Assembly: GCA_037129835.1 (NCBI GenBank)
Contig: JBAXUE010000002.1
Span: forward strand, 66,334 to 130,333
DNA from: a bacterium
GTDB taxonomy: Bacteria > Patescibacteriota > CPR2 > UBA1875 > CAIMLA01
Direction: 5' to 3'
Length of the DNA: 64,000 nucleotides
Part shown: in pieces, positions 1 through 56,949 of the stretch
Position numbering within the stretch: position 1 is the first letter of the stretch
Layout: each line of letters opens with the position of its first letter
Translations under genes and position numbers: made by a program
The notes under the pieces: generated by a model
The model's database searches: none
Told to the model about the DNA's origin: nothing
The model's input: the letters and a program-made list of their open reading frames with translations, nothing else

Positions 1-953
1 GTAGCATTGTAATTCTTCTTTTGGTTTTTGTACCGGGACTTAAGTTTTCTCATAATGGTGCCTCGCGATGGATTAATATTTTTGGGATTCAGTTTCAGCC
101 TTCAGAACTGATGAAAATTAGTATGATTATATTTTTAGCGAGCTGGCTCGAAAAAAGAAAAAATGAAATCGGAGATTTTCAAAAAGTGGTAGTACCATTT
201 GCCGGTATCGTTATTTTAGTACTCGGCCTGATATTAATCGAACCAGATATGGGAACAGCTACGGTTCTTGCGCTTACAGCAGGGGTAATGTTTTTTGTAG
301 CTGGGTCCAAAATGTCACATGTTTTCGCAGCAGTGGGTACCGCTATCGGAGGAGTAATTGTTTTAATAGCTGCCGCTCCCTATAGAATGGCCAGGTTTAC
401 TATCTTCTTAAACCCTACAGCAGATAAGTCTGGTAGTGGTTATCAAATTTCGCAAGCGCTGGTGGCAATTGGAAGTGGCGGTTTGTTTGGGCTTGGGTTC
501 GGCAGAAGTCGACAAAAATTCAATTATTTACCCGAGGCAGCTACAGATTCGATTTTTGCTGTTATCGCTGAAGAGCTTGGACTAATCATTTCCTGCGCCA
601 TCGTCTTTGTTTTTTTGCTTTTTGGCCTTCGTGGTTATAAAATATCTAGGGGAGCACCTGATATGTTTTCCAGGTTGGTAGCTACGGGGATAACTACTTG
701 GATTATTTCTCAGGCATTTATTAATATTTTAGCGATATTAAGCCTAATGCCCCTTACTGGGGTGCCTTTGCCATTTTTTAGTTATGGCGGCACATCATTA
801 ATGATGATTTTGGCTAGTTGTGGAATATTATTAAATATATCAAAATCTGCAAATCAAGGAGGAAGCGATGAGAATAATAGTATCGGGCGGTGGAACTGGC
901 GGACATATTTCCCCAGTTTTAGCAGTAATAGGCGAATTACAAAAAAAAGATAG
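1..953 (+). CDS. ftsW: Cell division/peptidoglycan polymerase FtsW/RodA (SEDS family), 5'-truncated by window edge
   Basis: Open frame continues upstream of position 21 to the window start. Multi-TM protein with a SEDS-type C-terminal region (…GVPLPFFSYGGTSL…). Lies immediately upstream of murG in the classic dcw order. Confidence 0.8.
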   Translation, partial: SIVILLLVFVPGLKFSHNGASRWINIFGIQFQPSELMKISMIIFLASWLEKRKNEIGDFQKVVVPFAGIVILVLGLILIEPDMGTATVLALTAGVMFFVAGSKMSHVFAAVGTAIGGVIVLIAAAPYRMARFTIFLNPTADKSGSGYQISQALVAIGSGGLFGLGFGRSRQKFNYLPEAATDSIFAVIAEELGLIISCAIVFVFLLFGLRGYKISRGAPDMFSRLVATGITTWIISQAFINILAILSLMPLTGVPLPFFSYGGTSLMMILASCGILLNISKSANQGGSDENNSIGRWNWRTYFPSFSSNRRITKKR

Positions 954-2058
954 TTCAGTTGAAGTTTTATATATTGGTTCTTCGGAGGGGCTAGAGAGCA
1001 AGATTATCCCTCAAACTGGAATTAAATTTGTCGAAATTCATTCAGGTAAATTTCGTCGATATCACAAAAATAAAATATTAAATATTATTGATCCCACTAC
1101 TATTTATAAGAATTTTGTAGATCTTATCAAATTCAGTAGAGGTTACTTCGAGGCTAAAGAAATTATTTCAGAATATGATCCAGATGTTGTTTTTTGCAAA
1201 GGGGGATACGTTAGTTTCCCAGTCGGACTGGCGGCTTCTTCATTGAAATACCCTCTCGTTATCCATGAATCTGACAGTATTATGGGTATGGCAAATAAGG
1301 CGCTAGCTAAAAGGGCAGACAAGGTTTGCGTTTCATATCCGCTCAAAAACTTCACTGATGTTCCAAAAGATAAACTTGTTTATTCTGGTAATCCAGTCAG
1401 AGGAGATATTTTCGAGGGAGATAGAGGTAAGGCTGTAGAGGAATTTAGCCTTGTAAGGACGCTTCCGACACTTTTAATAATTGGGGGTAGCCAAGGTTCT
1501 CTGGTTATTAATCAAGTCGTTTCTGAGGCGCTTAGGAGTTTATTGAAAAGATATCAAATTATTCACGTATCGGGGGAAAGAGATTACGATTGGCTGAGTT
1601 TTCAAGCCGGCAAGCTACCAGAGGATGTAAAGGCGAACTATCATTTATATAATTTTCTTTCTGGAAGTCTCAAGCACGCATACAAAGTATCTGATTTGGT
1701 TATTTCTCGGGCGGGTAATAACGTGATTTCCGAACTTGCAGTACTTGGTAAGCCAACTATCTTAATTCCACTTCAGTCCTCTGCTAATGACCATCAGGTT
1801 TCAAATGCAAAGATTCTTTCTAGAATGGGTGCTGCTATGTTGGTCAAGCAGGACAGCCTAACAGCCCAATCGCTTGAGCGGAAAATAAATTATTTATTTG
1901 ATAATAAGGAAGAGCTAGATGGACTTGCTAGGAAAATTTCGGAATTATCAGCACCCGAAGCTTCTAAAATAGTAGCAGATATTATTAACGAAGAAGGAAA
2001 TAAGTTTATTCAAGAAACAAGCTATGAAGAAAATGAAAATAAGTCAGAGGAGAAATAA
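868..2058 (+). CDS. murG: UDP-GlcNAc--undecaprenyl-PP-MurNAc-pentapeptide GlcNAc transferase MurG, with acidic C-terminal tail
   Basis: N-terminal GGTGGHI glycosyltransferase-28 motif. Perfect SD AAGGAGG 5 nt before the ATG. 396 aa, ending in an E/N/K-rich extension. Confidence 0.9.
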   Translation: MRIIVSGGGTGGHISPVLAVIGELQKKDSSVEVLYIGSSEGLESKIIPQTGIKFVEIHSGKFRRYHKNKILNIIDPTTIYKNFVDLIKFSRGYFEAKEIISEYDPDVVFCKGGYVSFPVGLAASSLKYPLVIHESDSIMGMANKALAKRADKVCVSYPLKNFTDVPKDKLVYSGNPVRGDIFEGDRGKAVEEFSLVRTLPTLLIIGGSQGSLVINQVVSEALRSLLKRYQIIHVSGERDYDWLSFQAGKLPEDVKANYHLYNFLSGSLKHAYKVSDLVISRAGNNVISELAVLGKPTILIPLQSSANDHQVSNAKILSRMGAAMLVKQDSLTAQSLERKINYLFDNKEELDGLARKISELSAPEASKIVADIINEEGNKFIQETSYEENENKSEEK

Positions 2059-2845
2059 TTCACGAAATATTCGAAGGGCTGTTCGTCAACCTTCTCTATA
2101 TTCAAGGACAGAAGAGCCAGCTCCTAAGCCATTCTCTTTCCGTTGGATAATTATCTTCGTTATTTTGTTGTTAATAACTGGGATTATATTTTTAGTATTT
2201 ATTTCTGACGTATTTAGGGTTAATAATGTGGTTTTTTCTCCTACGAAATACATTAGTAGGGAAGAGTTGGAAAAAACTAAGAATAATAATCAGACACTTT
2301 TTGATAATAATATTATTTCTTTTGGCTTTTTTGGTCTGGCGGGAAAGCTTGAGAAAGTGACTGGAGTTTCTAAAATTTCTGTTATTAGAAAAAGCAACCA
2401 TGACATCTATGTAAATATAAAGGAAGAATATCCTCTCTTGGTTTGGCAGACGATGAATAAAAAATATTTGGTCAATAACGATGGAATTATCTGGGCTAAT
2501 TTTGAAGATAAATATGCCAGTGTCCCGATTATAATTGATACCAAGAATGTACCCGTAGAACTGAACTCAAAGGTAATTCCGGGTACCTTTATCTCTTTTA
2601 TTACTGAACTACAGAATAATTTTCCAAAGAAAACCGCTAATACAATTATAAAAATGGAAGTTTTGGATATAATCAGCGATCTTAGGGTCACTACCAAAGC
2701 TGGCTGGTGCGTTTATTTTGATACATCGAGAACTGCCGGTAACCAGATCATAAGCTTGGGCAGAGTTCTAACCGAAGTCGCTGCTAAAAAGCAACCACTT
2801 GAATATGTCGATCTTCGGGTCAGAGACAGAATATTTTATAAGTAG
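2024..2845 (+). CDS. ftsQ: Cell division protein FtsQ/DivIB-like (basic N-terminus, single TM, POTRA-like region)
   Basis: Basic cytoplasmic N-terminus, one TM helix, then an extracytoplasmic domain. Positioned directly after murG as in dcw clusters. Confidence 0.65.
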   Translation: MKKMKISQRRNNSRNIRRAVRQPSLYSRTEEPAPKPFSFRWIIIFVILLLITGIIFLVFISDVFRVNNVVFSPTKYISREELEKTKNNNQTLFDNNIISFGFFGLAGKLEKVTGVSKISVIRKSNHDIYVNIKEEYPLLVWQTMNKKYLVNNDGIIWANFEDKYASVPIIIDTKNVPVELNSKVIPGTFISFITELQNNFPKKTANTIIKMEVLDIISDLRVTTKAGWCVYFDTSRTAGNQIISLGRVLTEVAAKKQPLEYVDLRVRDRIFYK

Positions 2846-2889
2846 GTTCGATGCTCGCTTCGGGGGAGAGGACCACAATATTTGTATAA

Positions 2890-2913
2890 TAATTTATTAA
2901 TATTAATAAATTA
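2890..2913. repeat. 24-bp perfect AT-only palindrome (TAATTTATTAAT|ATTAATAAATTA)
   Basis: Verified base by base: every position from 2890-2913 pairs with its mirror partner. Confidence 0.6.
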
Positions 2914-2954
2914 ACTTCTAGGTATAAACGTATAAATGCCATAATGTTAATTTA

Positions 2955-2994
2955 ACTAATTATTTGATAATAATACAATTATCAAATAATTAGT
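2955..2994. repeat. Inverted repeat with 17-bp perfect arms and 6-nt spacer (AACTAATTATTTGATAAT-aataca-ATTATCAAATAATTAGT)
   Basis: Arms 2955-2971 and 2978-2994 are exact reverse complements. Sits in the convergent intergenic gap and abuts the dif-like site. Confidence 0.6.
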
Positions 2995-2999
2995 ATTTT

Positions 3000-3028
3000 A
3001 CAGTTCAAATAATATATTATGTTAAACT
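3000..3028. other. dif: Candidate dif site (Xer recombinase target) at a replication-terminus-like strand switch
   Basis: ACAGTTCAAAT-AATATA-TTATGTTAAAC. The right arm matches the E. coli XerD arm TTATGTTAAAT at 10 of 11 positions. The AT central hexamer and A-rich left arm resemble the B. subtilis dif ACTTCCTAGAATATATATTATGTAAACT. It lies exactly where + strand genes meet - strand genes. Confidence 0.5.
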
Positions 3029-3456
3029 ATACATTTAACAATTTACTTGCAAAGAAAACTCCAGCCACATACTGCAGAGCTATTACAGATACAGAATAAC
3101 TTTCTCCAATATTTAGGCTTTGCAAAGATATAAACGATGTATTTTTATCGTTTTCTATGACCACTTACACCCCCAAGTCGATATAATCAAATAGTCGTCC
3201 AAGATATATTGTGCGACACAATGCTTCAAGCAGTTCTGGTAGGTAAGGGTGAGGCTATGGTAGTCATCTAAGTATTTAATTAGGTCGACCCATACCGTTT
3301 AGACTTAGGGCGCAGAGAAAAAAGGGGGAACTTCTTTTACTTTATAATGTAACAATTCTATTGTATTTTGATTAAGTAATTGAGTATTTTAAAAATAATC
3401 CCCCCAAAAAAAATTGGATATAATTTGTAATCATAAACGATAACTTAATATATTAA

Positions 3457-6453
3457 TTAAAACCGGATTTCTTCGCCTGGCTTTATCTCTTTAGTACTAC
3501 TGATGATTATTTTTTCATGTGGAAGTATCGTGGTTATGTCTTTAAAGTCACTAGGAGCTATCTCTCGTTGCTTTTTGTCGCTATGAGTACTGTTTGTATG
3601 TATTGTACTCGGTTTCGCCACTGTGACGATGATTTCTTTTATCTCAGTCTTTGTCTCCAATTTTGGTTTTTCAATGGGGGAATCCAGCTTCTTGGGTTCT
3701 ATATTTTTTGTATTTTCGGTAATTGCCTGTTTTAACTTATCTGCCAGCTGAGTGTTATCGTTTTTTACTTCACTCTTTCCCCTATTTAAATTTGAATTAG
3801 AACGAGAATTTGTGTTCTTTTCTTTATTGTTACTATTAAATTTGTTTTTACTTCTCTCATTATTGTCGTTATGATCATTACTACTATTATTGGAAATATT
3901 GGTATTACCGCTAGCGCTAGGTTTTTCTTTATCTGGTTGCGGAGTAACCATTTCTTTGTTAGCAGGTGGAATGTAATTAGGATTTGTAATAGGTCTATCG
4001 CCTTCGTTGGCATTCACGCCAGCGATTACCGAATCGATATTGTACCATTTCCGAATATCGTCTTCTACTTTCTTTTTTGGAGTACCGTATTTTTTTCGCG
4101 AAATAGCAATTACTATGCTCGTTAGATCTTCCGTTGGCTCTGCAGAGGGAATACTTTTTGCTGAGAATGGTGAGCTATTTACTCCATTTACTGGCATATT
4201 AAGGTATAAATGCCGATTGTCTAGATTGATAAGGTCATTCTGTGAAAATATAGGCTCAAATTCTTTTTCTAGAAAGCTAGCATCTGTTGCGCCCACCCTA
4301 AATGATATCAGAGTACCTACGTTGCCAAATACCGCGTCTCTAACCTCTTCCTCCATCTGTGCAACGTATTGGTTGGCCACAGCTAGGGAAAGATGGTATT
4401 TTCGGGCTTCAGAAAGAATGGTTCCAAAGGATTCTGTGGCAAAATTTTGAAACTCATCAACGTAAAGATAGAAGTCTTTCCTCTCTGATTCAGGAATAAA
4501 CGCTCTTTGCATGGCAGCGAGCTGGATTTTTGTGATTATTAATGAGCCAAGAAGTTCTGAGTTTATCTCCCCTATTTTGCCCGTTGATAGATCTACTAGT
4601 AATATTTTTCCCGTATCCATTATTTCTGAAAAGTTAACAGTGCTTTTTGGTTGACCAACAATATTGCGAATAGTTTCTGAAGCTGTAAATTGGCCAACTT
4701 TATTAAGAATAGGCGCTACAGTCTCAGTAGCCATTTTATCATTATAGGTAGAAAACTCTTTGAGCCAGAACATCTGTACTACTGGGTCAGTTACTTGGCT
4801 AACTACATTTTTGCGATAATTTTTATCGGTTAGCATTCTGACAATACCTAGCATAGTAGAGCCCTCAACTTCTGCTAGCGCTAGTACCGTGTGATTTAAG
4901 ACATATTCTAGCCTTGGCCCCCAGGAGAACCCAAACATTCTCTTCAGTACTGATATAAAGCCCTTTGCAGTCTCTTCACGCATTCCAGGGGGGCTTTCCA
5001 GGGGATTAAAACCTAGGGGAAACTCTTTATCAGAGGGGTTAAGATAAATAACATCATCTAGGCGCTCTTTGGGGATAAATTTAAGAATATTATCTATAGC
5101 CTCTCCATGAGGATCAATAAAGGCTACACCCTCCCCTCTTTGGATATCTTGTATCGCTAAACCTTCAAGAAGCCTAGACTTTCCTACTCCAGTTTTCCCG
5201 ATTATGTACATATGTCTTCGTCTATCATCTCTTTTGATCCCGAACAGTTTATCGCTATTTCGGAAAGTTGTAATCGCAAGGGGTGAAATGTCTTTATCGT
5301 TAATGTTTTCATCAGTAATGAAGGGCAAGCTTGATGGTGGTTCGCCTTTTTTCGAAGATGTCCATACGATATTGGGCGTTTCTACCGAAACATGTGGCAA
5401 GTGATATAAACTTGCAAGTTCTTCAATATTAAGATCATAGCCCTTGTCATTAAATAGTCTTGCCCGATAAGCGTTTAAGAATTCTTCACTTGTAAATAAA
5501 CCCTTCCCAGTAAAGCCATTTAAGTTTGTTGTATTAAATTGTTTAAAAGCACCAACAACGGCTTGAATTTTATCGGTAGCCTTTTCTCTGGACTTAGAAA
5601 GATATACAACCCTTATCATGACGCGATACCCGAGTTTGGCGCTCTTGTCTTCAATGGCTGTTAACTCAGTTTCTTCTGCATGAGAAAGTTTAGGCGCCTC
5701 AGGCTTAGCATCTTTTTTAGCTTCTACGGGTGCAACATTGAGCGCATTGAATATAAAATCTAGAGGGAGGGTGCCGGAGTTGGGTTTTATGGTTTTTTTA
5801 GACGCGATATATGAAAGAGCTTTTTTCCTCCAGTCGTCATTTTCTGGTTTTGCGAGTATTTGAATCCAAATTTGTTCATTTGGCTCATTGGTCATAGAAA
5901 GCATGCCCGTAATTCCTGCCAGCGGGTCAACATCAAAGTTCAAAAAAGTTTTTATTGGGTAAATATCATCTTTTGTAAGAAGTAATTCTGTTCCCGCAAT
6001 AGCATCTGGATTTTTATCACCGTCTACATCGGTTGTTTTTGAGTAGTCATTAACCACTGATATTTCCGCAGTCGGATATTGAGCATAGACTTGACCTTCT
6101 ACAAATTCTTTAATCTTCTTGGGCACCCAGATGAAAAATTCTATAGAATTTAACGTAGAGACGATTTCAAGGCTGAAATGTTCTTGTACGGTGGTTCCCT
6201 TTTTTTGTTCGCTTTTTGAATGAAGAATACCGTGTAGGGCTGCGAACATCATTTCTGCTGCCACAGGGCCTTTCTCATTATTTTTAGGTATTTTTATTGA
6301 TAAGACAGTATGTTCAATTTCGTTTACGTATGAAGCTTTTTTAAAATTTTTCCATGAAAAAAATAGAACTAGTGGTACTATAAACCACCAAGTCCAAACT
6401 ACAACACTCCACATTCCTCCAAGTATCGCTAAGCTAAGTTCCTGCAAAAACAT
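3457..6453 (-). CDS. Membrane-anchored P-loop ATPase of the VirB4/TraC-VirD4/TraD (FtsK-HerA) superfamily with disordered N/S/K-rich C-terminal tail
   Basis: N-terminal hydrophobic anchor. Walker A GKTGVGKS is followed by FIDPHGE (compare the TrwB/TraD VIDPxGD). Walker B LYVDEF and an RKYHLSLAVANQ box are present. The last ~170 aa are low-complexity N/S/K-rich. Confidence 0.6.
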   Translation of the reverse strand: MFLQELSLAILGGMWSVVVWTWWFIVPLVLFFSWKNFKKASYVNEIEHTVLSIKIPKNNEKGPVAAEMMFAALHGILHSKSEQKKGTTVQEHFSLEIVSTLNSIEFFIWVPKKIKEFVEGQVYAQYPTAEISVVNDYSKTTDVDGDKNPDAIAGTELLLTKDDIYPIKTFLNFDVDPLAGITGMLSMTNEPNEQIWIQILAKPENDDWRKKALSYIASKKTIKPNSGTLPLDFIFNALNVAPVEAKKDAKPEAPKLSHAEETELTAIEDKSAKLGYRVMIRVVYLSKSREKATDKIQAVVGAFKQFNTTNLNGFTGKGLFTSEEFLNAYRARLFNDKGYDLNIEELASLYHLPHVSVETPNIVWTSSKKGEPPSSLPFITDENINDKDISPLAITTFRNSDKLFGIKRDDRRRHMYIIGKTGVGKSRLLEGLAIQDIQRGEGVAFIDPHGEAIDNILKFIPKERLDDVIYLNPSDKEFPLGFNPLESPPGMREETAKGFISVLKRMFGFSWGPRLEYVLNHTVLALAEVEGSTMLGIVRMLTDKNYRKNVVSQVTDPVVQMFWLKEFSTYNDKMATETVAPILNKVGQFTASETIRNIVGQPKSTVNFSEIMDTGKILLVDLSTGKIGEINSELLGSLIITKIQLAAMQRAFIPESERKDFYLYVDEFQNFATESFGTILSEARKYHLSLAVANQYVAQMEEEVRDAVFGNVGTLISFRVGATDASFLEKEFEPIFSQNDLINLDNRHLYLNMPVNGVNSSPFSAKSIPSAEPTEDLTSIVIAISRKKYGTPKKKVEDDIRKWYNIDSVIAGVNANEGDRPITNPNYIPPANKEMVTPQPDKEKPSASGNTNISNNSSNDHNDNNERSKNKFNSNNKEKNTNSRSNSNLNRGKSEVKNDNTQLADKLKQAITENTKNIEPKKLDSPIEKPKLETKTEIKEIIVTVAKPSTIHTNSTHSDKKQREIAPSDFKDITTILPHEKIIISSTKEIKPGEEIRF

Positions 6454-7553
6454 TATTCCCTCCCGTTAGAAATGGTATAAGTAGCCCGAGATATTCGCCT
6501 AAATCGATCTCTTTGGAGATTGAGTAATATCGTCGTTTCTTTTACAACCCTTCGTTTCAATACCTCTATTATAATATCGTCTTTATGCATAGGTTCGCCA
6601 GATGTAATTAATATTTCTGCTATTACATCCTCTACCACGCCAGAAGTATAACCCCACTCCTTGAGCGCATAGATACCTCGACCGATTAAAATAAATCTGT
6701 CATCACGTATAAGTTCATTGTGTACGGCTTGTCTGGTAACGGTTTTTTTCTTAGTTCCAACATCTTGAATCTTTTTTGATATTTCAGAATAATGAAGAGG
6801 TTTTTTGTGTTTCTTTAAGATGTAATATGTTTTATCCTTAATACTTTTAGGATTAATTTCACGCCATTTGGTAAGGCCGAAGTGTCCTGCTTCGGTTTTG
6901 ATGATTTCCTTAGCGGTCGATAATATCGCGATAATATTTTTAGTATCTGTATTTGCTTCAGGGATAGTCATTTTTATTTCTCGTATAAGCTTTACTTCTT
7001 CTATGGGATTTTGTTCTTTTTCGAGGATACTAATAGCTGCAGCACTAATCGTTTTAATTAAGGGTATTGTAATTGGTTCGACAAAATACGATTTTTTAAA
7101 GTTATCAGCGTCAGAGAGCGTTGAGATGTTGTTACTGCAAGAGATCAAAAAACTTAGTTGATATCGTTGTTTTGTAGTAACCACAGCGGTGAAAATATCC
7201 TTTTCTAGGTCGCCAGAAACGATGATGCCACCGTTATTGATTATAATATCTTTAATGATTATATATATTTCTTGAGCTCGCATGTCGGTTTTGCCGAAGT
7301 CGCGAAGCTTACCAATGGCGTTCTTCTCTATTTGTCGTACGCGTTCCCTAGTAATGCCTAGACTCTTACCTATTTCTTCGAGAGTTTTTGGTTTTAGGCC
7401 ATCAACACCAAAGCGTTCGCTCAACACTTGTCTTTCGCGATCTTTTTTTATTTTTGCAGAATTCAAAAAAAAATTAACCTCGTCTGTTGCATTAAATTTT
7501 GCAACCGAAGGTATCTCTACTGTATTCGTGTTTTTTTCTTGTTTTCTAGGCAT
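6453..7553 (-). CDS. Sigma-70 region-4 HTH plus C-terminal HARE-HTH domain protein (sigma-factor-like DNA-binding regulator)
   Basis: LSERFG…[28 protein letters not shown] matches sigma region 4.2. C-terminal YSEISKKIQ…[17 protein letters not shown] matches the HARE-HTH of the RNAP delta subunit. Its stop overlaps the start of the downstream ATPase. Confidence 0.55.
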
Positions 7554-19758: not shown

Positions 19759-19863
19759 AGTCATCCATGGCCCGCTTTCGTCATCCTTGCGAACGCGAGG
19801 GTCTCTTTTGGCAACGTCATCCTGAGTCGAAACGAAGCTTGCCTGCGGTAAGCAGGGATCCAT
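19759..19863. repeat. Cluster of three GTCATCC-family repeat units (second terminus of the inverted pair)
   Basis: AGTCATCCATGG, CGTCATCCTTGCGAACGCGAGGGTCTC and CGTCATCCTGAGTCGAAACGAAGCTTGCCTGCGGTAAGCAGGGATCC. The last unit is 45/48 identical to the inverted copy at 16.06 kb. Confidence 0.65.
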
Positions 19864-20230
19864 GTCCACTCTCCTTATCGTTCGAATTCTAATGAGAACT
19901 ACAGATACAGGTTATATGTAGTTTTCATAGGATCTACGTAATCCAACCATCAGTTCGAAAAGAAAGAGAGTAAAGTAACGAAGTTATAATAAATAACTTC
20001 CGGTATCGGCTTGTTGTTATTTATTATATTTGAGCTACTGCAACGAATGATACTTTAAAGAATCTGTTAGGTTGGGCTTTTTGCACCACTTTTATTAAAA
20101 AAGTGGCATATATTATAATATAACGTTTAAAAGATATTCGCTAAAGTCGTAATTGCTCGACCTCGAAGATAGTCGAGTACACGGTACCAAGGCGATTTTT
20201 CATTGGGATTAACGCTTAAATATACCGCCC

Positions 20231-20335
20231 CTTTGTCATCCCTGGTCGCACTTGTCCTCCAGTAGCTTGTTAGCGAAGTAGGAACCCCAGTCTGCCCGAG
20301 CCGTACGCTCGTGTCGGCCAGGGGGATCTCTCTAG
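20231..20335. repeat. Extended GTCATCC-family repeat (TGTCATCCCTGGTCGCAC…GGCCAGGGGGATCTC)
   Basis: Shares the GTCATCCCTGG…CCAGGG(G)GATCTC termini with the copies at 21.28 and 34.77 kb. GC-rich relative to the flanks. Confidence 0.45.
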
Positions 20336-22625: not shown

Positions 22626-24428
22626 TTACTTCTTATCGAGTATTTTTACATTTTTTTTAGCATAGTCAGCAGAGAGCATTTTGATCCCCGTATCTTTAAA
22701 AGAAACTCGAATTTCATCATCAGATATTCCCTCTACTTCGCCTATTCCGAAATCAGGATGACTGATAAGATCCCCAACTTCCAAGAAAGTTTCCGACTCT
22801 TCATCGATGTGTTCTACCACAGGTTCTTCGTCTGACCTATCTTCTACTCCTTTAGTATTTCCACTAAATATCGCTCGAAGTATTTTTTCTTCTGACGACT
22901 GAATAGCTTTTTCCTCTTCTACAGAAACAACTGTTTTTTCTACTTCTGTAACAGGTTTCTGGAAGTCATCTCCACCAGGAAGCTCTAGTGCCTTTATCTC
23001 AGGTAGGGCTATGTGACCACCAATATCACCATACATTCCTACAGTATTTGTGAGTACTCTGCTAAGCTGCTTTTCTCTCTCACACCATATCTTTTCGAAA
23101 GCGTTTCGCTCTTTGCGTATACCACTTTCCATAGCTCCAAAAGCCTCTACTATGGCCTCTACCCTTTGTTTAAACTCATTGCCCGTAAGGTATGTATATA
23201 GGTAGTCCATCTTGTCGTTCTTGTTGACTGCCAAGGCCTTCTCTCTATAGACATCCACCAGGCCTTTTCTCAGCACTGTAGCGAGTGCAATAGCATATTT
23301 TAACTCACATACCCAAATCTTTTCTATTTGTACGAATCCATGAGCATCTCCAGGCATAGCTGCTGTTACTATCACTCCGATATCTGCCTTTATAGCCCTC
23401 ATATCTTCTTTTAACTTATCTACCCAACCTGCACTCCAAGACTTGGTTTGCTTGGATTCCCAAGCTATTTTGCCACACAGAGCACCGGCTTTGTTTTGTA
23501 CTAGCTGTACCACATCAGCACCGTTTACACCCTTTGGTACTGGCGCGATAGCGTCAAAAGGAAAAGCGTCGGTTAGCACTTGTTCTAGCTCGAGCTCCTG
23601 AACTTCGCCTTGGGTTTGCATGGAGCCTTGCTCCAGCTTCCTAGCTAGATCGTCCTTTGCCCTGCTGACATTCGATAGCTTCATCTCTAGCTCAGCAATC
23701 TTTTTGTGCTGTTGCTCTTCGGCCTTTCTACCCGCTTCTTCTTGAATCTTCTGACGCTCCTCGTCTAGCTGTCTCATCTTCTCTAGCTCAAAGCTCTGCT
23801 TGTCTTCCTCTAGGGTAATCTTTTGCTTTCGAAGTTCCAGCTCTTTTTCCTGAGCTTTACGGAGCTTCTCGTCCTTTTCATTCATTTGCTCTTGGAAACT
23901 ACGTTTCTCTAGCTCCAGCTCTTTTTGAGTTTCGTCGGCTAGCTCTTTTTTGAGCTCTAGGCGATAGGCCTCAGTCTTCTCGGCGTATTTCTTCTCGACT
24001 TCGAGCTCTATCTTGATTTTTTCCTCTTCTAGCCTAGTCTTTTCTTTTCTGAGCTCTATTTCACTCTCTTGAGCTTTTTCGAGCTTTTCATTTTTTTCCA
24101 AAATTAACTGCTCAAAATTATGTTTTTCTAGCTCTAGCTCTTTTTTTGCCTCTATTGATAATTCTTTTTTGAGTTCTAGCCGATAATTTTCTATCTTTTC
24201 GGCATACTTTATCTCAGCCTCTAGTTCTATCTTGGTTTTCTCTTTTTCTATCTCAGATTCTCTGGTGGCCAGAAGCCTATTAGTCTGCTCTAGCTCATCT
24301 TTTAGCTTTTGCTGTTCACTACTTAGCTCTTTGCGAACCTTTAGTTCCATCTGCTCTTTTAGGATGTCGTCGATGTCTATATCCCAACCGCATTTTGGGC
24401 ACTTAATGTTTTGTTCTGAATCTGTCAT
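22626..24428 (-). CDS. DUF2130-like protein: N-terminal Zn-ribbon, long duplicated coiled coil, conserved C-terminal alpha/beta domain
   Basis: A CPKC…C start, then about 250 aa of E/K/L heptad-rich sequence containing two ~73-aa near-identical blocks. The C-terminal region (AIAPVPKGVNGADVVQ…IWVCELKYAIALA) resembles DUF2130. Confidence 0.5.
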   Translation of the reverse strand: MTDSEQNIKCPKCGWDIDIDDILKEQMELKVRKELSSEQQKLKDELEQTNRLLATRESEIEKEKTKIELEAEIKYAEKIENYRLELKKELSIEAKKELELEKHNFEQLILEKNEKLEKAQESEIELRKEKTRLEEEKIKIELEVEKKYAEKTEAYRLELKKELADETQKELELEKRSFQEQMNEKDEKLRKAQEKELELRKQKITLEEDKQSFELEKMRQLDEERQKIQEEAGRKAEEQQHKKIAELEMKLSNVSRAKDDLARKLEQGSMQTQGEVQELELEQVLTDAFPFDAIAPVPKGVNGADVVQLVQNKAGALCGKIAWESKQTKSWSAGWVDKLKEDMRAIKADIGVIVTAAMPGDAHGFVQIEKIWVCELKYAIALATVLRKGLVDVYREKALAVNKNDKMDYLYTYLTGNEFKQRVEAIVEAFGAMESGIRKERNAFEKIWCEREKQLSRVLTNTVGMYGDIGGHIALPEIKALELPGGDDFQKPVTEVEKTVVSVEEEKAIQSSEEKILRAIFSGNTKGVEDRSDEEPVVEHIDEESETFLEVGDLISHPDFGIGEVEGISDDEIRVSFKDTGIKMLSADYAKKNVKILDKK

Positions 24429-26873: not shown

Positions 26874-28229
26874 CTAGTCTCTGCCACCCCTTTGTCTATT
26901 ACAATATCGGTGGACTAATCTGGCGTTTGATAGCTTGGTTTCTCCACCTCGCCAGTAAAACTCAATATGATCAACCTCAGAATCGTCTAAAACACGTATT
27001 TTTTGACCACATATTTTACAGGTTGAATCAGTGTCAAAAAGTTGCTTTTTCTCGTCGTGTGAATAGTTTCTTGTCTGTGACTTGGAATAATCTACGATTT
27101 TCCTCAAAGATTCTAGCCATTTCTCAAATCTGTATTGCACATTTTCTGGCTTATCTGTTGATGACTTCAAGGAATCTTCAAATTTCTTGACAGCTGTCAT
27201 TAAGTGTAAAAGTTCTTCGCGAATAGAATCAAGGTGAGGGATAATTTCGTTTTTTTGATACATCGTGAAACCCCACATTACGATGTCAAATAAGCCTTTG
27301 TTTATTTTTGTATTTTCCCACTTTCCGTTTGAGTCAGATTCTTCGCCTACAACAAACCTACGAAAAGCATTGTCACCAAATACTGAGCGAGTTAGGTCAA
27401 CAGATTTTTTAAAAACCTCACGAAGTTCTTTTGCTTTTTCTTCATTTAGATTTTGGTTATTATGCATTTCTTGATTTAGAAACTGTCTCATGGGTGCTTT
27501 GTATTTTAAGTATGAGTTATTATAAAAAGCGAAAAATCGTAATAAAAGCTCTCTATCAATCATTCTTATGGACATAGCTGGTGATTTTAATAATGTTTGA
27601 TATTCTTTATTTTCGGCAAGCTCGATTAGTAAGTCGTTATATTTTCCACGGTAAATACAGTTTCTGAGTTCCTGGTCGTTCAGCTTCACTGCGCCAGTAT
27701 TTAGTCTTTCGAAAACCTCAAATCTAACATTGATATCAGAATCCTTTTTGATTCTGATAAATGGTATAAGATAAGAATCAACTTTTCGCTGTGTTATTTT
27801 GTCTAGTTCCTTAAATGATTTCCTGTTTAGTCCTGTCAAAACCTTTAATCCCGAAAGGGCAAATTTTTCGTGCTTGTCTTGAAAGTACCCGTCCTTAAAA
27901 GAAAAGATAGAAATTAGTCTTTGTTGCCCGTCTATTACTGATTGGGTACCGTCATCTTCTTCGGCAGTGTATATTACTGGTATCGGGACTCCCAAGAGAA
28001 TAGATTCTATCAGTCTACTAGCTTTGCTTTTATCCCAGACATATCCTCTTTGAAAGTATGGTCTTACATCAAGTTCCCCTGCCTTGTAATCAGAATATAA
28101 GTCTTTTATGGCTCTACTGGGGTTGTCAAAGGTAATTCTTCTTTCATCCTCAGGTATATCAAAAACCAGTGGTTCGTTGTCATTATTGTCTTCTTCAAGA
28201 ATAACGTCATTATTATCTATTACCGTCAT
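26874..28229 (-). CDS. GmrSD-like type IV restriction protein: DUF262 (ParB-like NTPase/nuclease) N-domain + HNH/DUF1524 C-domain
   Basis: VIDGQQRLISIF is the DUF262 hallmark. The C-terminus CKICGQ…DHIEFYWRGGETKLSNARLVHRYCN is an HNH motif. Confidence 0.8.
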   Translation of the reverse strand: MTVIDNNDVILEEDNNDNEPLVFDIPEDERRITFDNPSRAIKDLYSDYKAGELDVRPYFQRGYVWDKSKASRLIESILLGVPIPVIYTAEEDDGTQSVIDGQQRLISIFSFKDGYFQDKHEKFALSGLKVLTGLNRKSFKELDKITQRKVDSYLIPFIRIKKDSDINVRFEVFERLNTGAVKLNDQELRNCIYRGKYNDLLIELAENKEYQTLLKSPAMSIRMIDRELLLRFFAFYNNSYLKYKAPMRQFLNQEMHNNQNLNEEKAKELREVFKKSVDLTRSVFGDNAFRRFVVGEESDSNGKWENTKINKGLFDIVMWGFTMYQKNEIIPHLDSIREELLHLMTAVKKFEDSLKSSTDKPENVQYRFEKWLESLRKIVDYSKSQTRNYSHDEKKQLFDTDSTCKICGQKIRVLDDSEVDHIEFYWRGGETKLSNARLVHRYCNRQRGGRD

Positions 28230-28285: not shown

Positions 28286-29449
28286 CTATTTATTTCCCTT
28301 GGCACGGTTATGTGTTTTACAAAGCATCTCACAGTTATTGATATCTGTGGCGCCACCTTTACTCCATGCTGTAACATGGTCAGCATCCATTTCGGTAAGA
28401 CTCCAGATTTTTGTCTTGTTGGCGTCGTGACCGATTACGCAATTCGGACAATTTGAAATGCCTTTAGATTTAGCGGTCGTAGTTTGTGACGAATATACCG
28501 CTTTTTTAGTTGCCTCATCAAAAACACGAACTTCAAGTAGTTTCTTTTCATTAGACCCACCTAGAATATATTCAAATATTCCCTTTCGATTTTTTATGTA
28601 TGGGTCTCCATAAAGCTTTTGTACGGCCAATGACACTTTTGCAGGATCATAGGCTTTTGTATGAAATTTTTTATAAAGTCGACCCCAATCCAGGCCTCGC
28701 ATTTCACTTTCAACATCTATAAATACACCAGAAACCCATTCTATTACGCTTTTAAAATATGCTTTTAACTCAGTGATATTGTTATCAAAGCGGTGACGAC
28801 TCATATATTCGCCGTTATTACCACAACTAATCCAGTCTAAGGCTCTCTCTAGAAATTCCTGTCTGTTGGCACTGCCAGTTACATAAGCACTCCATTTTTG
28901 AATGTTGGCATTTTGACTATTACTGAATTCCTCTTTACCAAGTGTGACAAATGGACCAGAATAAACCGCATTTAATAGTTCTTGATTATTTAGCGGTACA
29001 CCGGCAATGTTTATGGTTTTGAACCACTCTTTTATTTCACTTTCTTCGCCCTCGCATTCGTATATAAGAAGCTCAGCGTTCATGATTTTAGCCTGCTTAT
29101 CTGAAGCAATTCCACTGAAGTATTGTTCCATGCCGTTTTCGTCTTTTATGGCAAATTTGTTATAAACGAATCGTCCGATACTAGTGATACGTTGTTGTCC
29201 GTCCAATACTTCTAAGTTGTCAGTGCTCACTTTGTTAAAATATATTAAGCCCAGCGGATAGTCTTTGAGTAATGAGTCAATGACCGCGACGTCTTTTTTA
29301 CCATCAGCATAGATGTAGTTACGTTGATACTCTGGCTGAATAGTGAGCTTGCCAGAGAGTCCGAACAAACCCTTGCCTTCATGCTGGTTATACACAAATC
29401 CTTCACATATATTTCTTACGGTTATGTTAGTTACTAAAGTAGTTTTCAT
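28286..29449 (-). CDS. Second DUF262 + HNH (GmrSD-like) protein, paralog of upstream gene
   Basis: [14 protein letters not shown] (DUF262). The C-terminus CPNC…[25 protein letters not shown] is an HNH motif. Confidence 0.75.
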
Positions 29450-30648
29450 GCTATACCTTTCTTGTGTTTGATTAAAATCCTAGCGAATGGAACCACAACA
29501 GTTTCATCTTTTATCATATATAAATCACCGTTCACCGTTCCTCTTTTTTGCACTTCTTTCCGATACTTTTTATGCTCAGGTTTATACGGTTTGACTCCGA
29601 TGGATAAGCCCAGGTTTGCTATTCCCAAACCAATAATATCAAATTGTTCAGGAGAATATTTGTCAAGGAAACTAATTGGCACGCCCATAATACCCTTAAA
29701 GTCTCCAGGAATATGTTTAACGAAAGGAACTTCTATTGCATTAAAATTATCATAATTATCAAAAGATCTTTTAGTGCCAAATTTTATAACGTCTGACAAT
29801 TTCATTAATGGTAAGAATTCGTGAAGCCTTCCGTGGTCAAGATTAGTAAACCAGCGAACACCTTGGACTCTCGTGATGTAAACTTTCTTACCATTTTCAT
29901 CCGTCCGTATTTCGCGTACTTGCTCTAGATTGGCAATATCTTCTGGTATTTCATAAAACATTGCTCCACCATTCACTTTATGATTATTGCCAAGCCAAAT
30001 CTTGTTATCCTTAATTAATGGAAAGACTTCTTTATAAGTAATAGCGTTCATACTACCAATTATTAAGAACTTTTTTTTGTACTCAATAAGTTGTTTTAAG
30101 TACTCGCGGAACAAACTGAAAGGCGGGTTAGTTACCACTATATCAGCCTGCTTTAGTAGCTCAACACACTCGTTGCTCCGAAAATCTCCGGCTGCGTATT
30201 TATCATCGCCAAGTAAAAGCGAATAAGCATTATTGTCATGTTCTAAAAGCCATTTCACATCATTAAGGTTGGTTATGCCATCTTTATTAAGGTCTGAAAC
30301 CTCATTGATCTCAATTTTAAATGCTTTTTTATTTTTTCGATTAGAAAGTGTCTTATTTTTACCCATTTCTTCGAAACCCGGTATTTGTATCTGTGTTTGT
30401 ACAATCGGCGAACCAACGTAGCTTGTCGTTATCAACTTTTTTAAGCCAAATTCCTTAAATTTATTTGCAAAATACTTGAAGAAATTACTTTCAAATGGGT
30501 CATCGCAGTTGCAATAGACTATCTTGCCGCGAAAAACATCAGGATCGTAATCAATGTAGGCTTGGATTTCCTTCTGAATATCTTGATATTGAGTATAAAA
30601 CTCGTCGTTTTTAGTCTTTTTTGCGTTATGTAAATTTTTTTGTGCCAT
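29446..30648 (-). CDS. N6-adenine DNA methyltransferase of the M.EcoRI family
   Basis: The N-terminus …[19 protein letters not shown]…[18 protein letters not shown] and the catalytic [15 protein letters not shown] closely resemble M.EcoRI as I remember it. Its stop overlaps the downstream DUF262 gene start (ATGA). Confidence 0.8.
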
Positions 30649-35577: not shown

Positions 35578-36651
35578 TTATTTATCCCAAACGCAGCTAC
35601 TCCCAAAGTGTCCGTGCTTTGCGGTTTCTAGATACATTGGCTTTTTTAGTTTTAGAAAACTGATGATTCCCCGAGGGGTCAAGTCGTACTCGTTCGATCC
35701 CAGTAGGTTTACCTCGGTTCTGTTATCAATAATAGCGATGGCCATCACCGGCTCTGCGACACCGATACTATAAGCAAGCTTCACGAGCACTTCATGGGCA
35801 TTTTCTTTGCGGAGATAGTCTACGGCGATACGGCGCGCCATATAGGCAGCGCTTCTGTCTACCTTCGTGGCGTCTTTGCCACTAAAACAGCCACCTCCTA
35901 TGGGAATCTGAGGACCGTAATTGTCTACTGCTAGCTTGCGACCGGTGAGACCAGTGTCGGCGGTAAAGCCTCCTACTACAAATTCCCCTGTCGGGTTAAT
36001 GTGAATATGTTTTGGTTCAAGTGTTTCCGCTAATATTCTCAGGGGTGTAAAGTCTGCGCCTTCAAGATGCTGGGCACTGATGACTACTGTGTCTACTTTA
36101 CCATTTTCACCCAACGTTACTTGACTTTTCGCATCTGGACCGAAACCTTTCGGTAAATTCTTCATCAGTTGTCTGGCTAAATATAGCTCCTGCGGGATCA
36201 TTTCTTCGTTTTCATCGCAGGCATATCCGACCATGATTCCTTGGTCCCCCGCCCCACCAGTATCTACTCCTTGGGCGATTTCTGGGCTTTGATGAACGAT
36301 ATTTATGTGTATCTCGAGTTCGTCAGAATATCCGATTTCTGAATAAATATTTTGTACAATATTTTTGACGTCTACTTTTGCACATGATGTCACTTCTCCG
36401 GTGATATATATGTGCCCATGACCTCCCATCGTCTCTATCGCTACCCTACTTTCTGGGTCTTGTCTTAGATATTCGTCTAGTAATCCGTCGGATATTTGGT
36501 CGCAGACTTTATCGGGGTGTCCAGGGCTGACGCACTCGGCTGTCCGTATCCCCTTCTTGCTATAATATTCTACTTTTTCTTTTCGCGAGTTTATCGCCGT
36601 CATCGCTTCTTTCACTACTTCCTCCTTTGTCTTACCATGGGTATCGATCAT
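35578..36651 (-). CDS. metK: S-adenosylmethionine synthetase
   Basis: GHPDKVCDQISD signature, GGGCFSGKDATKVDRSAAYMARRIA, and a C-terminal MetK domain. Confidence 0.9.
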   Translation of the reverse strand: MIDTHGKTKEEVVKEAMTAINSRKEKVEYYSKKGIRTAECVSPGHPDKVCDQISDGLLDEYLRQDPESRVAIETMGGHGHIYITGEVTSCAKVDVKNIVQNIYSEIGYSDELEIHINIVHQSPEIAQGVDTGGAGDQGIMVGYACDENEEMIPQELYLARQLMKNLPKGFGPDAKSQVTLGENGKVDTVVISAQHLEGADFTPLRILAETLEPKHIHINPTGEFVVGGFTADTGLTGRKLAVDNYGPQIPIGGGCFSGKDATKVDRSAAYMARRIAVDYLRKENAHEVLVKLAYSIGVAEPVMAIAIIDNRTEVNLLGSNEYDLTPRGIISFLKLKKPMYLETAKHGHFGSSCVWDK

Positions 36652-36668
36652 AAATAATAGTTCTTTTG

Positions 36669-56289: not shown

Positions 56290-56358
56290 AACTAAGTGTT
56301 AATGTTATTTTAATTAGTGCTATGTGTCAATCTTTTCCATTCATGGCTGCCGGTAAAG

Positions 56359-56931: not shown

Positions 56932-56949
56932 ATTATCTCCTTAAATATT

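What the first reader, a model, noticed from the sequence alone, without database searches (positions are those of the whole stretch)
2846..3456. Probable replication terminus: convergent strand switch with a dif-like Xer site flanked by large AT palindromes
Every gene left of 2846 is on + and every credible gene from 3457 to 64000 is on -. This pattern suggests the two replichores meet here. Inside the gap, 3000-3028 reads ACAGTTCAAATAATATATTATGTTAAAC. Its right arm TTATGTTAAAC matches the E. coli XerD-binding arm at 10/11 positions, and the whole site resembles the B. subtilis dif (ACTTCCTAGAATATATATTATGTAAACT). A 17-bp-arm perfect inverted repeat (2955-2994) abuts it and a 24-bp perfect AT palindrome lies at 2890-2913. 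dif sites are rarely annotated in CPR-like genomes. The adjacent palindromes are unusual and could be accessory-factor sites or a termination feature.
Basis: partly seen in the sequence, partly recalled or inferred. Interest (0 to 1): 0.62.

Follow-up and report, generated by a model that had tools for sequence, protein, structure and literature searches.

The report
Conserved recombination site at gene convergence

Summary
The sequence facts are correct. All genes left of 2846 are on +, and 56 minus-strand ORFs cover 91.5% of 3457-64000. GC skew changes sign in the gap. The 28-mer (3000-3027), the 17-bp-arm hairpin (2955-2994) and the 24-bp AT palindrome (2890-2913) all exist.

The 28-mer is not a dif site. 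Its XerD-arm match occurs at chance frequency (3 found, 4.15 expected). It lacks dif palindromy. It is deleted in the closest relative (84% FtsQ identity) and absent from all other syntenic gaps.

What is conserved is a 24-28-bp site at 3192-3219: TA GTCGTCCAA GATATA TTGTGCGAC AC. It has two inverted XerC-like half-sites (GTCG-Y-M-Y-AA) around a 6-bp spacer.
- It is single-copy.
- It sits in the same ftsQ -> gap <- ATPase convergence in the other 19 syntenic host lineages examined, out to CPR2. A 21st contig (L017) carries it in a different convergent gap.
- It is not coding, matches no Rfam family, and shows no hairpin covariation.
- The same core, with the same two spacer alleles, occurs in 18 tailed-phage contigs.
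- In one host contig a prophage starts right beside it, with the junction apparently inside the core.

Best reading: this is a dif-type, tyrosine-recombinase site at a likely terminus, exploited by phages. No Xer gene was found, and whole-genome skew could not be tested.

The parts
21..2845 (+). End of the dcw cell-division cluster: ftsW (21-953, partial), murG (868-2058), ftsQ (2024-2845). mraZ-rsmH-PBP-murF-mraY lie further upstream on the source contig.
   Evidence: Pfam hits. The FtsQ homologues carry POTRA_1/FtsQ names. Contig context is in L001.
2862..2871 (+). G-rich box (GGGGGAGAGG) just after the ftsQ stop. Related boxes (ACAGGGGAG..., GGGTGGAGTG) occupy the same place in relatives.
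   Evidence: Alignment A2. In L031 the box lies beyond a 3.4-kb insertion, on the core's side. It is present in CPR2 locus L034. Its function is unknown.
2890..2913 (.). Perfect 24-bp AT palindrome TAATTTATTAATATTAATAAATTA. A TAATTA-type palindrome is conserved in position, not in exact sequence, in relatives.
   Evidence: 0 of 1000 shuffles reach it. Equivalents exist in L004, L006, L007, L008, L021 and L030, and in L034. It folds weakly as RNA (z = -0.75).
2955..2999 (+). Perfect hairpin with 17-bp arms and a 6-nt loop, followed by ATTTT. It is probably an AU-rich intrinsic terminator of ftsQ and the dcw operon.
   Evidence: (dG -17.2, z -9.2). L004 keeps a hairpin here with 12-13-bp arms TATTTGATA/TATCAAATA. 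The simple terminator scan, which requires G+C-rich stems, does not call it.
3000..3027 (+). It is judged a chance resemblance.
   Evidence: It has no fold and no palindromy.
3111..3249 (+). Block kept at over 90% identity between the window and L004 while the rest of the gap is about 50-60% identical. It contains a small palindrome/hairpin GGCTTTGCAAAG (3116-3127), ATAAA, a small hairpin (3132-3154), ATGAC at a fixed -37 (3157-3161), the core site, and a purine-rich stretch.
   Evidence: Alignments A1, A2 and A3. Spacing is constant with no indels in 16 lineages. ATGAC at -37 is also present in CPR2 locus L034. The role of these flanks is unknown.
3192..3219 (+). Candidate dif/att core: TA GTCGTCCAA GATATA TTGTGCGAC AC. 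It has 9-bp conserved arms (11 with the looser outer bases) in inverted orientation around a 6-bp spacer. The invariant 24-mer is 3194-3217.
   Evidence: It is unique in the window with up to 3 mismatches and is present in all 20 syntenic host lineages, plus L017 in another context. It occurs once per assembly in 7 Patescibacteria species genomes. There are 18 phage copies. A prophage junction lies at it in L030.
3457..6453 (-). 998-aa DUF8128 + TrwB/TraD-like (FtsK/HerA-superfamily) P-loop ATPase. Its 3' end always faces the site. It is co-transcribed with a sigma-70 region 4 + HARE-HTH protein (6453-7553).
   Evidence: Pfam, NCBIfam and PDB hits. 7057 homologues across CPR. Synteny in every host locus except L017 and L030.

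Best explanation
The gap is a conserved convergence point of two long co-oriented gene blocks and is probably the replication terminus. It carries one copy of a site-specific recombination site at 3192-3219.

The site has two inverted half-sites of consensus GTCG-Y-M-Y-AA. These are very close to the XerC-binding half-sites of known dif, cer and psi sites. They flank a 6-bp spacer, GATATA, with GATACA as a second allele in other lineages.

Inferred mechanism: a host Xer-type tyrosine recombinase binds both arms. Because the arms are near-symmetric and there is no XerD-type arm, it may be a single enzyme, as in the XerH, XerS and XerA systems. It would exchange strands across the spacer to resolve chromosome dimers. 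Temperate tailed phages of these bacteria carry the same core as attP and integrate there, as IMEX elements do at dif.

Shown here:
- the architecture, uniqueness and deep conservation of the site;
- that it is not coding and shows no RNA-type covariation;
- that it is shared with phages;
- that a prophage abuts it.

Inferred only:
- that the recombinase is a host Xer;
- that the site resolves dimers;
- that this is the terminus.

The adjacent 17-bp hairpin is most simply a terminator.
For: 1. Conservation. The core is present in all five lineages found through FtsQ, without reference to the motif. It is present in three distant lineages reached through the ATPase (49-58% identity), including CPR2, as GTCGCATAAGATA[T/C]ATTGT[G/A]CGAC.
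2. Copy number. There is one copy in the window and one per assembly in 7 Patescibacteria species genomes.
3. Architecture. The layout is 9-11 + 6 + 9-11 bp. The half-sites GTCGCATAA, GTCGTACAA, GTCGCACAA and GTCGTCCAA compare with the XerC arms of H. influenzae ATTTCGCATAA, cer GGTGCGTACAA, E. coli GGTGCGCATAA and psi GGTGCGCGCAA (PMC2410131).
4. Not a gene. No reading frame is conserved in any of six frames. There is no Rfam match. RNAalifold finds only the core's own palindrome.
5. No pairing constraint. The two variable positions that would pair vary independently. The covariation score is 0.077 against a shuffled mean of 0.092, and 486 of 500 shuffles score at least as high.
6. Phage copies. 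Eighteen IMG/VR contigs carry the core once each, in intergenic positions. The six whose flanking ORFs were annotated encode terminases, a portal, a primase or a helicase. Both spacer alleles occur in hosts and in phages, and L051 has the window's exact 24-mer. A profile of 120 Xer-like recombinases finds an integrase near the core only in L035.
7. Prophage junction. In host contig L030 (353,668 bp) the order is murG, ftsQ, host-type left flank, core, then immediately phage genes: a CHAP endolysin (phrog_635, E 1.6e-30), HNH endonucleases and a Laminin_G_3-domain protein, and no ATPase gene. An IMG/VR contig identical to that prophage over 8,307 nt ends inside the core.
8. Terminus-like setting. 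Genes converge and GC skew goes from +0.14 to -0.06. The same left-positive pattern holds in 20 of 21 host loci.
9. Xer-type recombinases do exist in Patescibacteria (names of P0255, P0262 and P0263).
Against: - No tyrosine recombinase was found in the 64-kb window or in any host locus. Whether this genome has a xer gene is untested.
- The skew and strand switch are confounded, because every gene is co-oriented. Only about 11 kb to the left of the gap could be seen.
- The site lacks the XerD arm, which is the most conserved part of canonical dif. It meets only 3-4 of the 6 inner palindromic pairs required in PMC3025954.
- Flanking features at fixed spacing (ATGAC at -37, a small palindrome, a G-box plus AT palindrome) are not expected for a chromosomal dif and are unexplained.
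- In phages the core often lies just upstream of the terminase genes, a cos/pac-like position.
- Relatives of the L035 integrase phage lack the core within 8 kb on either side of the integrase.
- The second junction (attR) of the L030 prophage was not seen, and no free-phage junction was found.
- The 3.4-kb insertion in L031 is not flanked by core copies.
- Most host loci were retrieved with the motif itself, so its invariance within the close clade is partly by construction.
Confidence: 0.58

Rival explanations
1. The core is only a phage attachment site (attB) lying inside a conserved non-coding element that has some other job. That element could be an unannotated CPR-specific RNA gene whose hairpin serves as the crossover site, as anticodon stem-loops do in tRNA genes. 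Phage-encoded integrases, not a host Xer, would act on it.
For: - A conserved block of about 140 nt with fixed spacing surrounds the core.
- A hairpin in the block between the window and L004 shows one compensatory change (my reading).
- On the + strand the core folds at -8.6 kcal/mol, z = -2.4, with G-U pairs possible only on that strand.
- L035 has a XerD-like integrase 2.7 kb from its core.
Against: - There is no Rfam family, no consensus structure beyond the core and no covarying stems.
- Paired positions vary independently, including 6 C-A combinations.
- In L032 and L033 the core sits about 40 nt from the ftsQ stop and lacks the upstream block.
- Phage-host identity stops at the 24-mer, so integration would split any RNA that spans it.
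- Most phage copies have no integrase nearby.
Confidence: 0.2
2. The core is an operator or organising site for a DNA-binding protein that does not recombine DNA. Candidates are the neighbouring sigma-r4/HARE-HTH protein, the TrwB-like translocase (a loading or oriT-like site), or a terminus-organising factor. Phages would copy it to hijack that protein.
For: - The site is tightly linked to the 3' end of the ATPase/sigma-HARE operon across CPR.
- It has flanking boxes at fixed distance.
- In phages it lies beside the DNA-packaging genes.
Against: - A conserved asymmetric 6-bp spacer shared between phage and host copies is what strand exchange needs, not what a dimeric repressor needs.
- A prophage-host junction lies at the core.
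- The half-sites match XerC arms.
- L017 and L030 carry the core without the ATPase gene beside it.
Confidence: 0.12
3. In the phages the core is a packaging (cos/pac) site, and the chromosomal copy is a domesticated or fortuitous equivalent.
For: - The core lies 0.2-2.2 kb upstream of terS/terL in L042, L044, L045, L048 and L051.
- A subset has repeated ACAGGGG boxes at -15 and +40, reminiscent of cosB-type repeats.
Against: - The same core sits next to three unrelated terminase families (Terminase_6, Terminase_3, GpA), whereas cos sites are terminase-specific.
- This reading does not explain single-copy conservation in host chromosomes from Saccharibacteria-like lineages to CPR2.
- It does not explain the prophage-host junction.
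Confidence: 0.05
4. The first reader's 28-mer at 3000-3027 is the functional dif of this genome.
For: - Its right arm equals the pSC101 psi XerD arm TTATGTTAAAC.
- It is unique in the window.
- It lies in the convergence gap.
Against: - The arm match is at chance frequency.
- The left arm is unlike any XerC arm and only 3 of 6 palindromic pairs are present.
- It is deleted or mutated in the 84%-identity relative and absent in all others, while the 3192-3219 site is invariant.
- Its left half is the U-tract of the preceding terminator-like hairpin.
Confidence: 0.03

Closest known systems
XerCD/dif chromosome dimer resolution (E. coli, B. subtilis)
   Same: - A single-copy 28-bp site with 11 + 6 + 11 bp layout in a terminus-like convergence.
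- Half-sites nearly identical to XerC arms: TCGCATAA equals the inner 8 bp of the H. influenzae arm, and CGTACAA matches the cer arm.
- An AT-rich 6-bp spacer.
   Different: - There is no XerD-type arm (TTATGTTAAAT). Both arms are XerC-like and almost symmetric, and the outer 4 bp are complementary rather than the inner ones.
- Conserved flanking features lie at fixed spacing.
- No xerC, xerD or ftsK gene was seen in the 64 kb.
Single-recombinase Xer systems (XerH/difH of Helicobacter, XerS/difSL of streptococci, XerA/dif of archaea)
   Same: Near-palindromic arms suggest that one recombinase binds both sides. Each of these systems is a lineage-specific divergent dif.
   Different: - There is no sequence similarity to difH or difSL as I recall them.
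- In XerS and XerH systems the recombinase gene is often next to its site. Here no recombinase gene lies within 10 kb to the left or 60 kb to the right.
IMEX: mobile elements that integrate at dif using host Xer (CTX-phi, VGJ-phi, TLC-phi, Neisseria GGI)
   Same: - Phage genomes carry a dif-like core with a matching spacer, and mostly have no integrase next to it.
- A prophage is inserted at the chromosomal site.
- Some viral copies have one good arm and one degenerate arm (L065-L067).
   Different: - The known phage IMEX are filamentous phages of Proteobacteria; here the elements are tailed phages of 20-49 kb with terminase and portal genes.
- Dependence on a host Xer is inferred, not shown.
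Plasmid resolution sites cer and psi with accessory sequences
   Same: A Xer core with XerC-type arms, plus conserved flanking DNA on one side at fixed distance. In cer and psi that DNA binds accessory proteins and imposes resolution selectivity.
   Different: - This site is chromosomal.
- The flanks show no resemblance to PepA, ArgR or ArcA sites.
- An accessory role for them is pure speculation.
Phage integration into hairpins of tRNA, tmRNA or small-RNA genes
   Same: The crossover site is an inverted repeat around a 6-7-nt centre, in a highly conserved sequence.
   Different: - No RNA gene was detected.
- There is no covariation.
- attP does not carry a replacement 3' part of a gene.

Membership tests
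dif (Xer target site) | 28-bp site: two roughly 11-bp recombinase-binding arms in inverted orientation around a 6-8-bp central region | tested here: met
For 3192-3219, the layout is GTCGTCCAA-GATATA-TTGTGCGAC with loosely conserved outer bases in 37 copies.
dif (Xer target site) | Sequence similarity to known XerC and XerD arms | tested here: inconclusive
   Both arms resemble XerC arms (TCGCATAA, CGTACAA). No XerD-type arm is present. Inner palindromy is 3-4 of 6, against more than 4 required in PMC3025954.
dif (Xer target site) | One copy per chromosome | tested here: met
   One copy in the 64 kb with up to 3 mismatches. One hit per assembly in 7 Patescibacteria species genomes. These assemblies are incomplete MAGs, so this is a lower-confidence 'met'.
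dif (Xer target site) | Located at the GC-skew shift point, opposite the origin | tested here: inconclusive
   There is a local sign change and a convergent strand switch. Only about 11 kb to the left was visible, and the skew is confounded with gene strand. The full contig could not be fetched, because the look-up tool's stated rules exclude proteins that lie outside the window.
dif (Xer target site) | A Xer-type tyrosine recombinase encoded in the same genome | not testable with these tools
   None was found in the window or the host loci. Patescibacteria do encode such enzymes.
dif (Xer target site) | Recombination at the site resolves dimers (FtsK- or accessory-dependent) | not testable with these tools
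   This needs genetics or biochemistry.
IMEX-type phage integration at dif | The element carries a dif-like attP whose central region matches the host site | tested here: met
   Eighteen phage contigs carry the core. Spacers GATATA and GATACA occur in both hosts and phages. L051 is identical to the window's 24-mer.
IMEX-type phage integration at dif | The integrated element is flanked by two dif-derived sites | tested here: inconclusive
   One junction was seen in L030, and the matching viral contig ends inside the core. The other junction lies outside the DNA that could be fetched.
IMEX-type phage integration at dif | No integrase of its own; uses the host Xer | tested here: inconclusive
   A profile search finds an Xer-like integrase only in L035. 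Only 1-15 kb of each 5-49-kb contig was held, and other integrase families were not modelled.
Structured non-coding RNA gene | Conserved secondary structure supported by covariation, or a match to a known family | tested here: not met
   Rfam gives nothing. RNAalifold finds only the core palindrome with 0 compensatory pairs. There are no covarying stems. The core covariation score is below the shuffled mean.

The most novel reading that the evidence does not exclude
CPR/Patescibacteria may use a previously undescribed dif variant. It would have two XerC-like arms, no XerD arm, and conserved flanking 'accessory' DNA. It would be permanently placed between the dcw cluster and a TrwB/FtsK-superfamily translocase gene. 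A group of tailed phages without their own integrase would lysogenise by exploiting the host Xer at this site, making them the first tailed-phage IMEX. The neighbouring translocase or the flanking boxes would take the place of FtsK-gamma control.
Probability: 0.25. Interest if true: 0.72.

Novelty: new variant of a known kind. Interest (0 to 1): 0.55.

Why it matters
If the 3192-3219 site is the dif of these bacteria, it would do four things.
- It would give a one-line sequence marker for the replication terminus in Saccharibacteria-like and other CPR genomes. Origins and termini are rarely annotated there, and most genomes are fragmented MAGs.
- It would define a dif type with two XerC-like arms.
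- It would link uncultured tailed phages to CPR hosts through a shared att core, which is a practical host-prediction handle.
- It would extend Xer exploitation (IMEX) from filamentous phages to tailed phages.

I found no paper that treats dif or Xer in Saccharibacteria, Patescibacteria or the CPR.

For the original finding, the lesson is cautionary. In AT-rich DNA a 10/11 match to the XerD arm is expected by chance.

Tried and rejected
- Rfam at gathering threshold on the window and on 10 relatives' loci, and at E<=10 on the gap, gave nothing beyond noise.
- tRNA/tmRNA scan found none in the 64 kb.
- The sigma-70 promoter and G+C-rich terminator scan of the gap found nothing above the shuffles.
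- Small-ORF hypothesis: stops fall at different places in all six frames, and only the invariant core 'translates' alike.
- RNA structure: RNAalifold, an all-pairs covariation scan of the ungapped -60..+84 block and the count of structure pairs gave no support.
- The phage integrase of L035 was used as bait to find the host's xer through contig length. None of the top 120 hits lies on the 372,584-bp contig.
- Relatives of that integrase phage lack the core within 8 kb on either side of the integrase.
- Walking the source contig for whole-genome skew was not attempted. By the look-up tool's stated rules it accepts only proteins of the window or listed homologues.
- Search for a second core or a half-core around the 3.4-kb insertion in L031 found none.
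- Search for the free-phage junction of the L030 prophage in IMG/VR found none. The left-half pattern did not recover that contig's other end. After assembling the full 29,881-bp viral contig, its start has no core.
- Literature searches for dif or Xer in Saccharibacteria, Patescibacteria or CPR found nothing relevant.
- L012 and L014 from the genome scan are chance partial matches, because the outer bases differ.
Full report
**What the window is**

The window comes from a CPR-type MAG. The ftsQ product is NCBI 'MAG: hypothetical protein WCP14_01800 [bacterium]', and it lies on a 372,584-bp contig, ERZ27300174 k141_20016. Seven GTDB species genomes that share the conserved site described below are labelled Candidatus Saccharibacteria or Patescibacteria group.

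Left of the gap is the end of the dcw cluster:
- ftsW, murG and ftsQ (2024-2845);
- mraZ, rsmH, a PBP, a Mur ligase and mraY upstream on the contig, all on +.

Right of the gap, every gene is on -. 56 minus-strand ORFs cover 91.5% of 3457-64000. The first two are a 998-aa DUF8128 + TrwB/TraD-like P-loop ATPase (3457-6453) and a sigma-70 region 4 + HARE-HTH protein (6453-7553).

**Checking the observation**

- The 28-mer is at 3000-3027 and is unique.
- The 17-nt-arm perfect inverted repeat is at 2955-2971 and 2978-2994. The 12+12 palindrome is at 2890-2913.
- Both repeats exceed 1000 dinucleotide shuffles of the gap.
- The hairpin folds at -17.2 kcal/mol, z = -9.2.
- GC skew is +0.14 over the 10.8 kb to the left, including contig DNA outside the window. 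It is -0.057 over the 60.5 kb to the right. The cumulative maximum falls at the gap.

The 'dif-likeness' of the 28-mer does not hold up:
- 11-mers within one mismatch of the XerD arm occur 3 times in the window, against 4.15 expected.
- The left arm matches the E. coli XerC arm at 4 of 11 positions.
- Only 3 of the 6 inner positions are complementary. The published criterion is more than 4 (PMC3025954).

FtsQ homologues led to syntenic loci from lineages at 84% and about 48% FtsQ identity. All have ftsQ -> gap of 530-660 nt <- ATPase. None has the 28-mer. In the 84% relative (L004), 26 nt covering its left arm and spacer are missing and the 'XerD arm' reads TTATTTTAAAC.

The 17-bp hairpin is kept in L004 with shorter arms. 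It is followed by a T-run in both genomes. This fits an AU-rich intrinsic terminator of the dcw operon.

**What is conserved instead**

In all five lineages the stretch GTCGTCCAAGATATATTGT[G/A]CGAC (window 3194-3217) is invariant, inside a gap that is otherwise about 50-60% identical.
- It is unique in the window even with 3 mismatches.
- A scan of 185,579 species genomes with CGTCCAAGATATATTGTNCG found it once in each of seven Saccharibacteria/Patescibacteria assemblies. Each copy is beside the 3' end of the ATPase gene. It was also found once in a GC-rich contig binned as Gammaproteobacteria (L017), again between convergent genes. Two further hits are chance partial matches.
- A metagenome scan added ten loci.
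- Homologues of the ATPase are very widespread in CPR, with 7057 hits.
- Loci at 49-58% ATPase identity, including CPR2, keep the same convergence and carry variants GTCGCATAAGATA[T/C]ATTGT[G/A]CGAC in the gap.

**Anatomy of the site**

The site has two 9-bp arms in inverted orientation around a 6-bp spacer. The outer two bases on each side are loosely conserved, giving 11 + 6 + 11 = 28 bp at 3192-3219.
- Arms seen in 37 copies, with the right arm read as its reverse complement: GTCGTCCAA, GTCGCACAA, GTCGCATAA, GTCGTACAA and GTCGTATAA, plus GTCGGACAA as the right arm of L017 and L048.
- Spacers: GATATA (28 copies) or GATACA (9 copies).
- These arms are strikingly like XerC-binding arms tabulated in PMC2410131: H. 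influenzae ATTTCGCATAA, ColE1 cer GGTGCGTACAA, E. coli GGTGCGCATAA and psi GGTGCGCGCAA.
- There is no XerD-type arm.

**Is it a gene?**

It does not appear to be.
- No reading frame is conserved. Stops fall at different places in all six frames.
- Rfam finds nothing in the window or in ten relatives.
- RNAalifold on 16 lineages predicts only the core's own palindrome, with no compensatory pair. An all-against-all scan of the ungapped block found no covarying stem.
- On 37 cores, positions 5 and 20, which would pair in a hairpin, occur as T/G, T/A, C/G and also C/A (6 times), T/C and C/C. The covariation score is 0.077, against 0.092 in shuffles.
- The arms therefore behave as two independently degenerate protein-binding half-sites, not as a helix.

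**Phages**

The degenerate core occurs once in each of 18 IMG/VR contigs, none of which has ftsQ, murG or the ATPase nearby.
- The six contigs whose flanking ORFs were annotated (L042, L044, L045, L046, L048, L051) are tailed phages. Between them they encode large terminases of three Pfam families, a portal, a primase and a helicase.
- The core is mostly intergenic, often 0.2-2.2 kb upstream of terS/terL.
- Both spacer alleles occur in phages and in hosts. L051 carries the window's exact 24-mer.
- A profile built from 120 Xer-like recombinases detects an integrase near the core only in L035. Relatives of that integrase phage lack the core within 8 kb on either side.
- In host contig L030 (353,668 bp) the order is murG, ftsQ, the host-type left flank (small palindrome, ATGAC at -37), the core, then directly phage genes. 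These are an HNH endonuclease, a CHAP endolysin (phrog_635, E 1.6e-30), another HNH endonuclease, a Laminin_G_3-domain protein and a 1151-aa protein. There is no ATPase gene within 8.3 kb.
- An IMG/VR contig of 29,881 bp is identical to this prophage over 8,307 nt. It ends inside the core, at ...GTCGTACAATATATCTTG, and starts about 120 nt upstream of a terS-like ORF.

The core is therefore a junction between phage and host DNA, which makes it an att site.

**Interpretation**

A single-copy 11-6-11 site with XerC-like arms fits the dif/IMEX paradigm best. It is conserved far beyond what a phage's convenience would explain. It lies at a conserved convergence with a skew sign change. Phages that mostly show no integrase beside it share its spacer.

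Three points remain untested: a xer gene in this genome, the whole-chromosome skew, and the second prophage junction. The strand switch and the skew are confounded, because every visible gene is co-oriented. I therefore put 0.58 on 'dif-type site at a probable terminus, exploited by phages'.

The main rival, at 0.2, is that the core is a phage attB inside a conserved non-coding element of other function. Several unexplained features keep that rival alive:
- ATGAC at exactly -37, also present in CPR2;
- the palindrome GGCTT....AAGCC followed by ATAA;
It stays with the core when 3.4 kb are inserted next to ftsQ in L031.

These features could equally be accessory sequences of the cer/psi kind. 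That is speculation.

**Verdict on the finding**

The specific 28-mer should be dropped in favour of 3192-3219.

Noticed in passing
window 6453-7553 (-) and 3457-6453 (-): A sigma-70 region 4 + HARE-HTH (RNA polymerase delta-like) fusion protein always sits immediately upstream of the DUF8128/TrwB-like ATPase. The pair is conserved from Saccharibacteria-like lineages to CPR2, and in relatives topA lies just upstream. The ATPase's best NCBIfam and PDB matches are the coupling proteins TraD and TrwB and the DNA-translocating ATPase CedD, through the P-loop region only.
   Followed up: partly
window 9280-54127: In relatives (L031-L034) topA lies within a few kb of the sigma-HARE/ATPase pair. Here about 46 kb separate them. 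This stretch includes a defence-like cluster: DUF2130 (22626-24428), two GmrSD-type endonucleases (26874-28229; 28286-29449, the second with HNH), an EcoRI-type adenine methylase (29446-30648) and a Z1-domain protein (31135-33018). It looks like a variable island next to the conserved site.
   Followed up: partly
window 54127-58095 (-): topA (54127-56289) and dprA (56950-58095) are neighbours, as in Firmicutes, where xerC (codV) lies nearby in the smf-topA-trmFO-codV cluster (from memory). No recombinase gene follows here.
   Followed up: partly
L031:8271-12308 (842,305-bp contig): A 3.4-kb insertion with a SRAP-domain gene and about eight small ORFs lies between the ftsQ terminator and the G-box/AT-palindrome/core unit. 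It is not flanked by copies of the core. This shows that the G-box and the AT palindrome belong with the core rather than with ftsQ.
   Followed up: partly
L017:4158-4181 (contig CAYJVP010000029.1, binned as Gammaproteobacteria, GC 0.52-0.59): The full 24-mer (position 20 = C) lies between convergent genes: an M23 peptidase on +, and phosphoglucose isomerase followed by an FtsQ-like gene on -. This is a GC-rich contig with no ATPase gene beside the core. It is either a mis-binned relative or evidence that the site reaches beyond the AT-rich clade.
   Followed up: partly
L035, L036, L038, L039, L041, L046, L050 (viral loci), +/-50 nt around the core: A subset of phage copies has ACAG[G/A]GG / CC[C/T]CTGT boxes at -15 and about +40 from the core. 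They occur as direct repeats in L039 and L046 and look like arm-type or accessory binding sites. Seven host loci have ACAGGGG 275-404 nt upstream of the core; in L007 and L008 it begins right after the ftsQ stop.
   Followed up: partly
L058/L061/L068/L069 = IMGVR_UViG_3300042810_000006 (29,881 bp): This viral contig is 100% identical to the L030 prophage over 8.3 kb. It terminates within the core, after the spacer plus 3 nt. This points to either an att-defined provirus boundary or an assembly break where the attL and attP sequences diverge.
   Followed up: yes
L053-L057 and proteins P0162-P0224: A family of phages whose longest contigs are mostly 26-43 kb (many about 41 kb) encodes a 280-aa XerD-like recombinase. 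In the two members fetched (L053, L056) it sits in the divergent region between the packaging module (GpA terminase) and the early module. Only L035 of this family carries the core in the part that was seen.
   Followed up: partly
L065, L066, L067 (viral): These are partial cores: a good left arm, the GATATA spacer and TTG, followed by an unrelated right arm. That is the arrangement known from degenerate IMEX att sites, or it could be chance.
   Followed up: no
window 19768-20332 and 36651-37371: These are two non-coding gaps of 564 and 720 nt between minus-strand genes. The first lies in the most G+C-rich part of the window (0.45). There is no tRNA and no Rfam match anywhere in the 64 kb.
   Followed up: no
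host loci L008, L020, L030, L032: Position 20 of the core is A in these hosts instead of G, giving a right arm TTGTACGAC. That arm is common in phage copies, and L030 is the locus with the prophage. The allele could be a footprint of past integration and excision that swapped the right arm.
   Followed up: no
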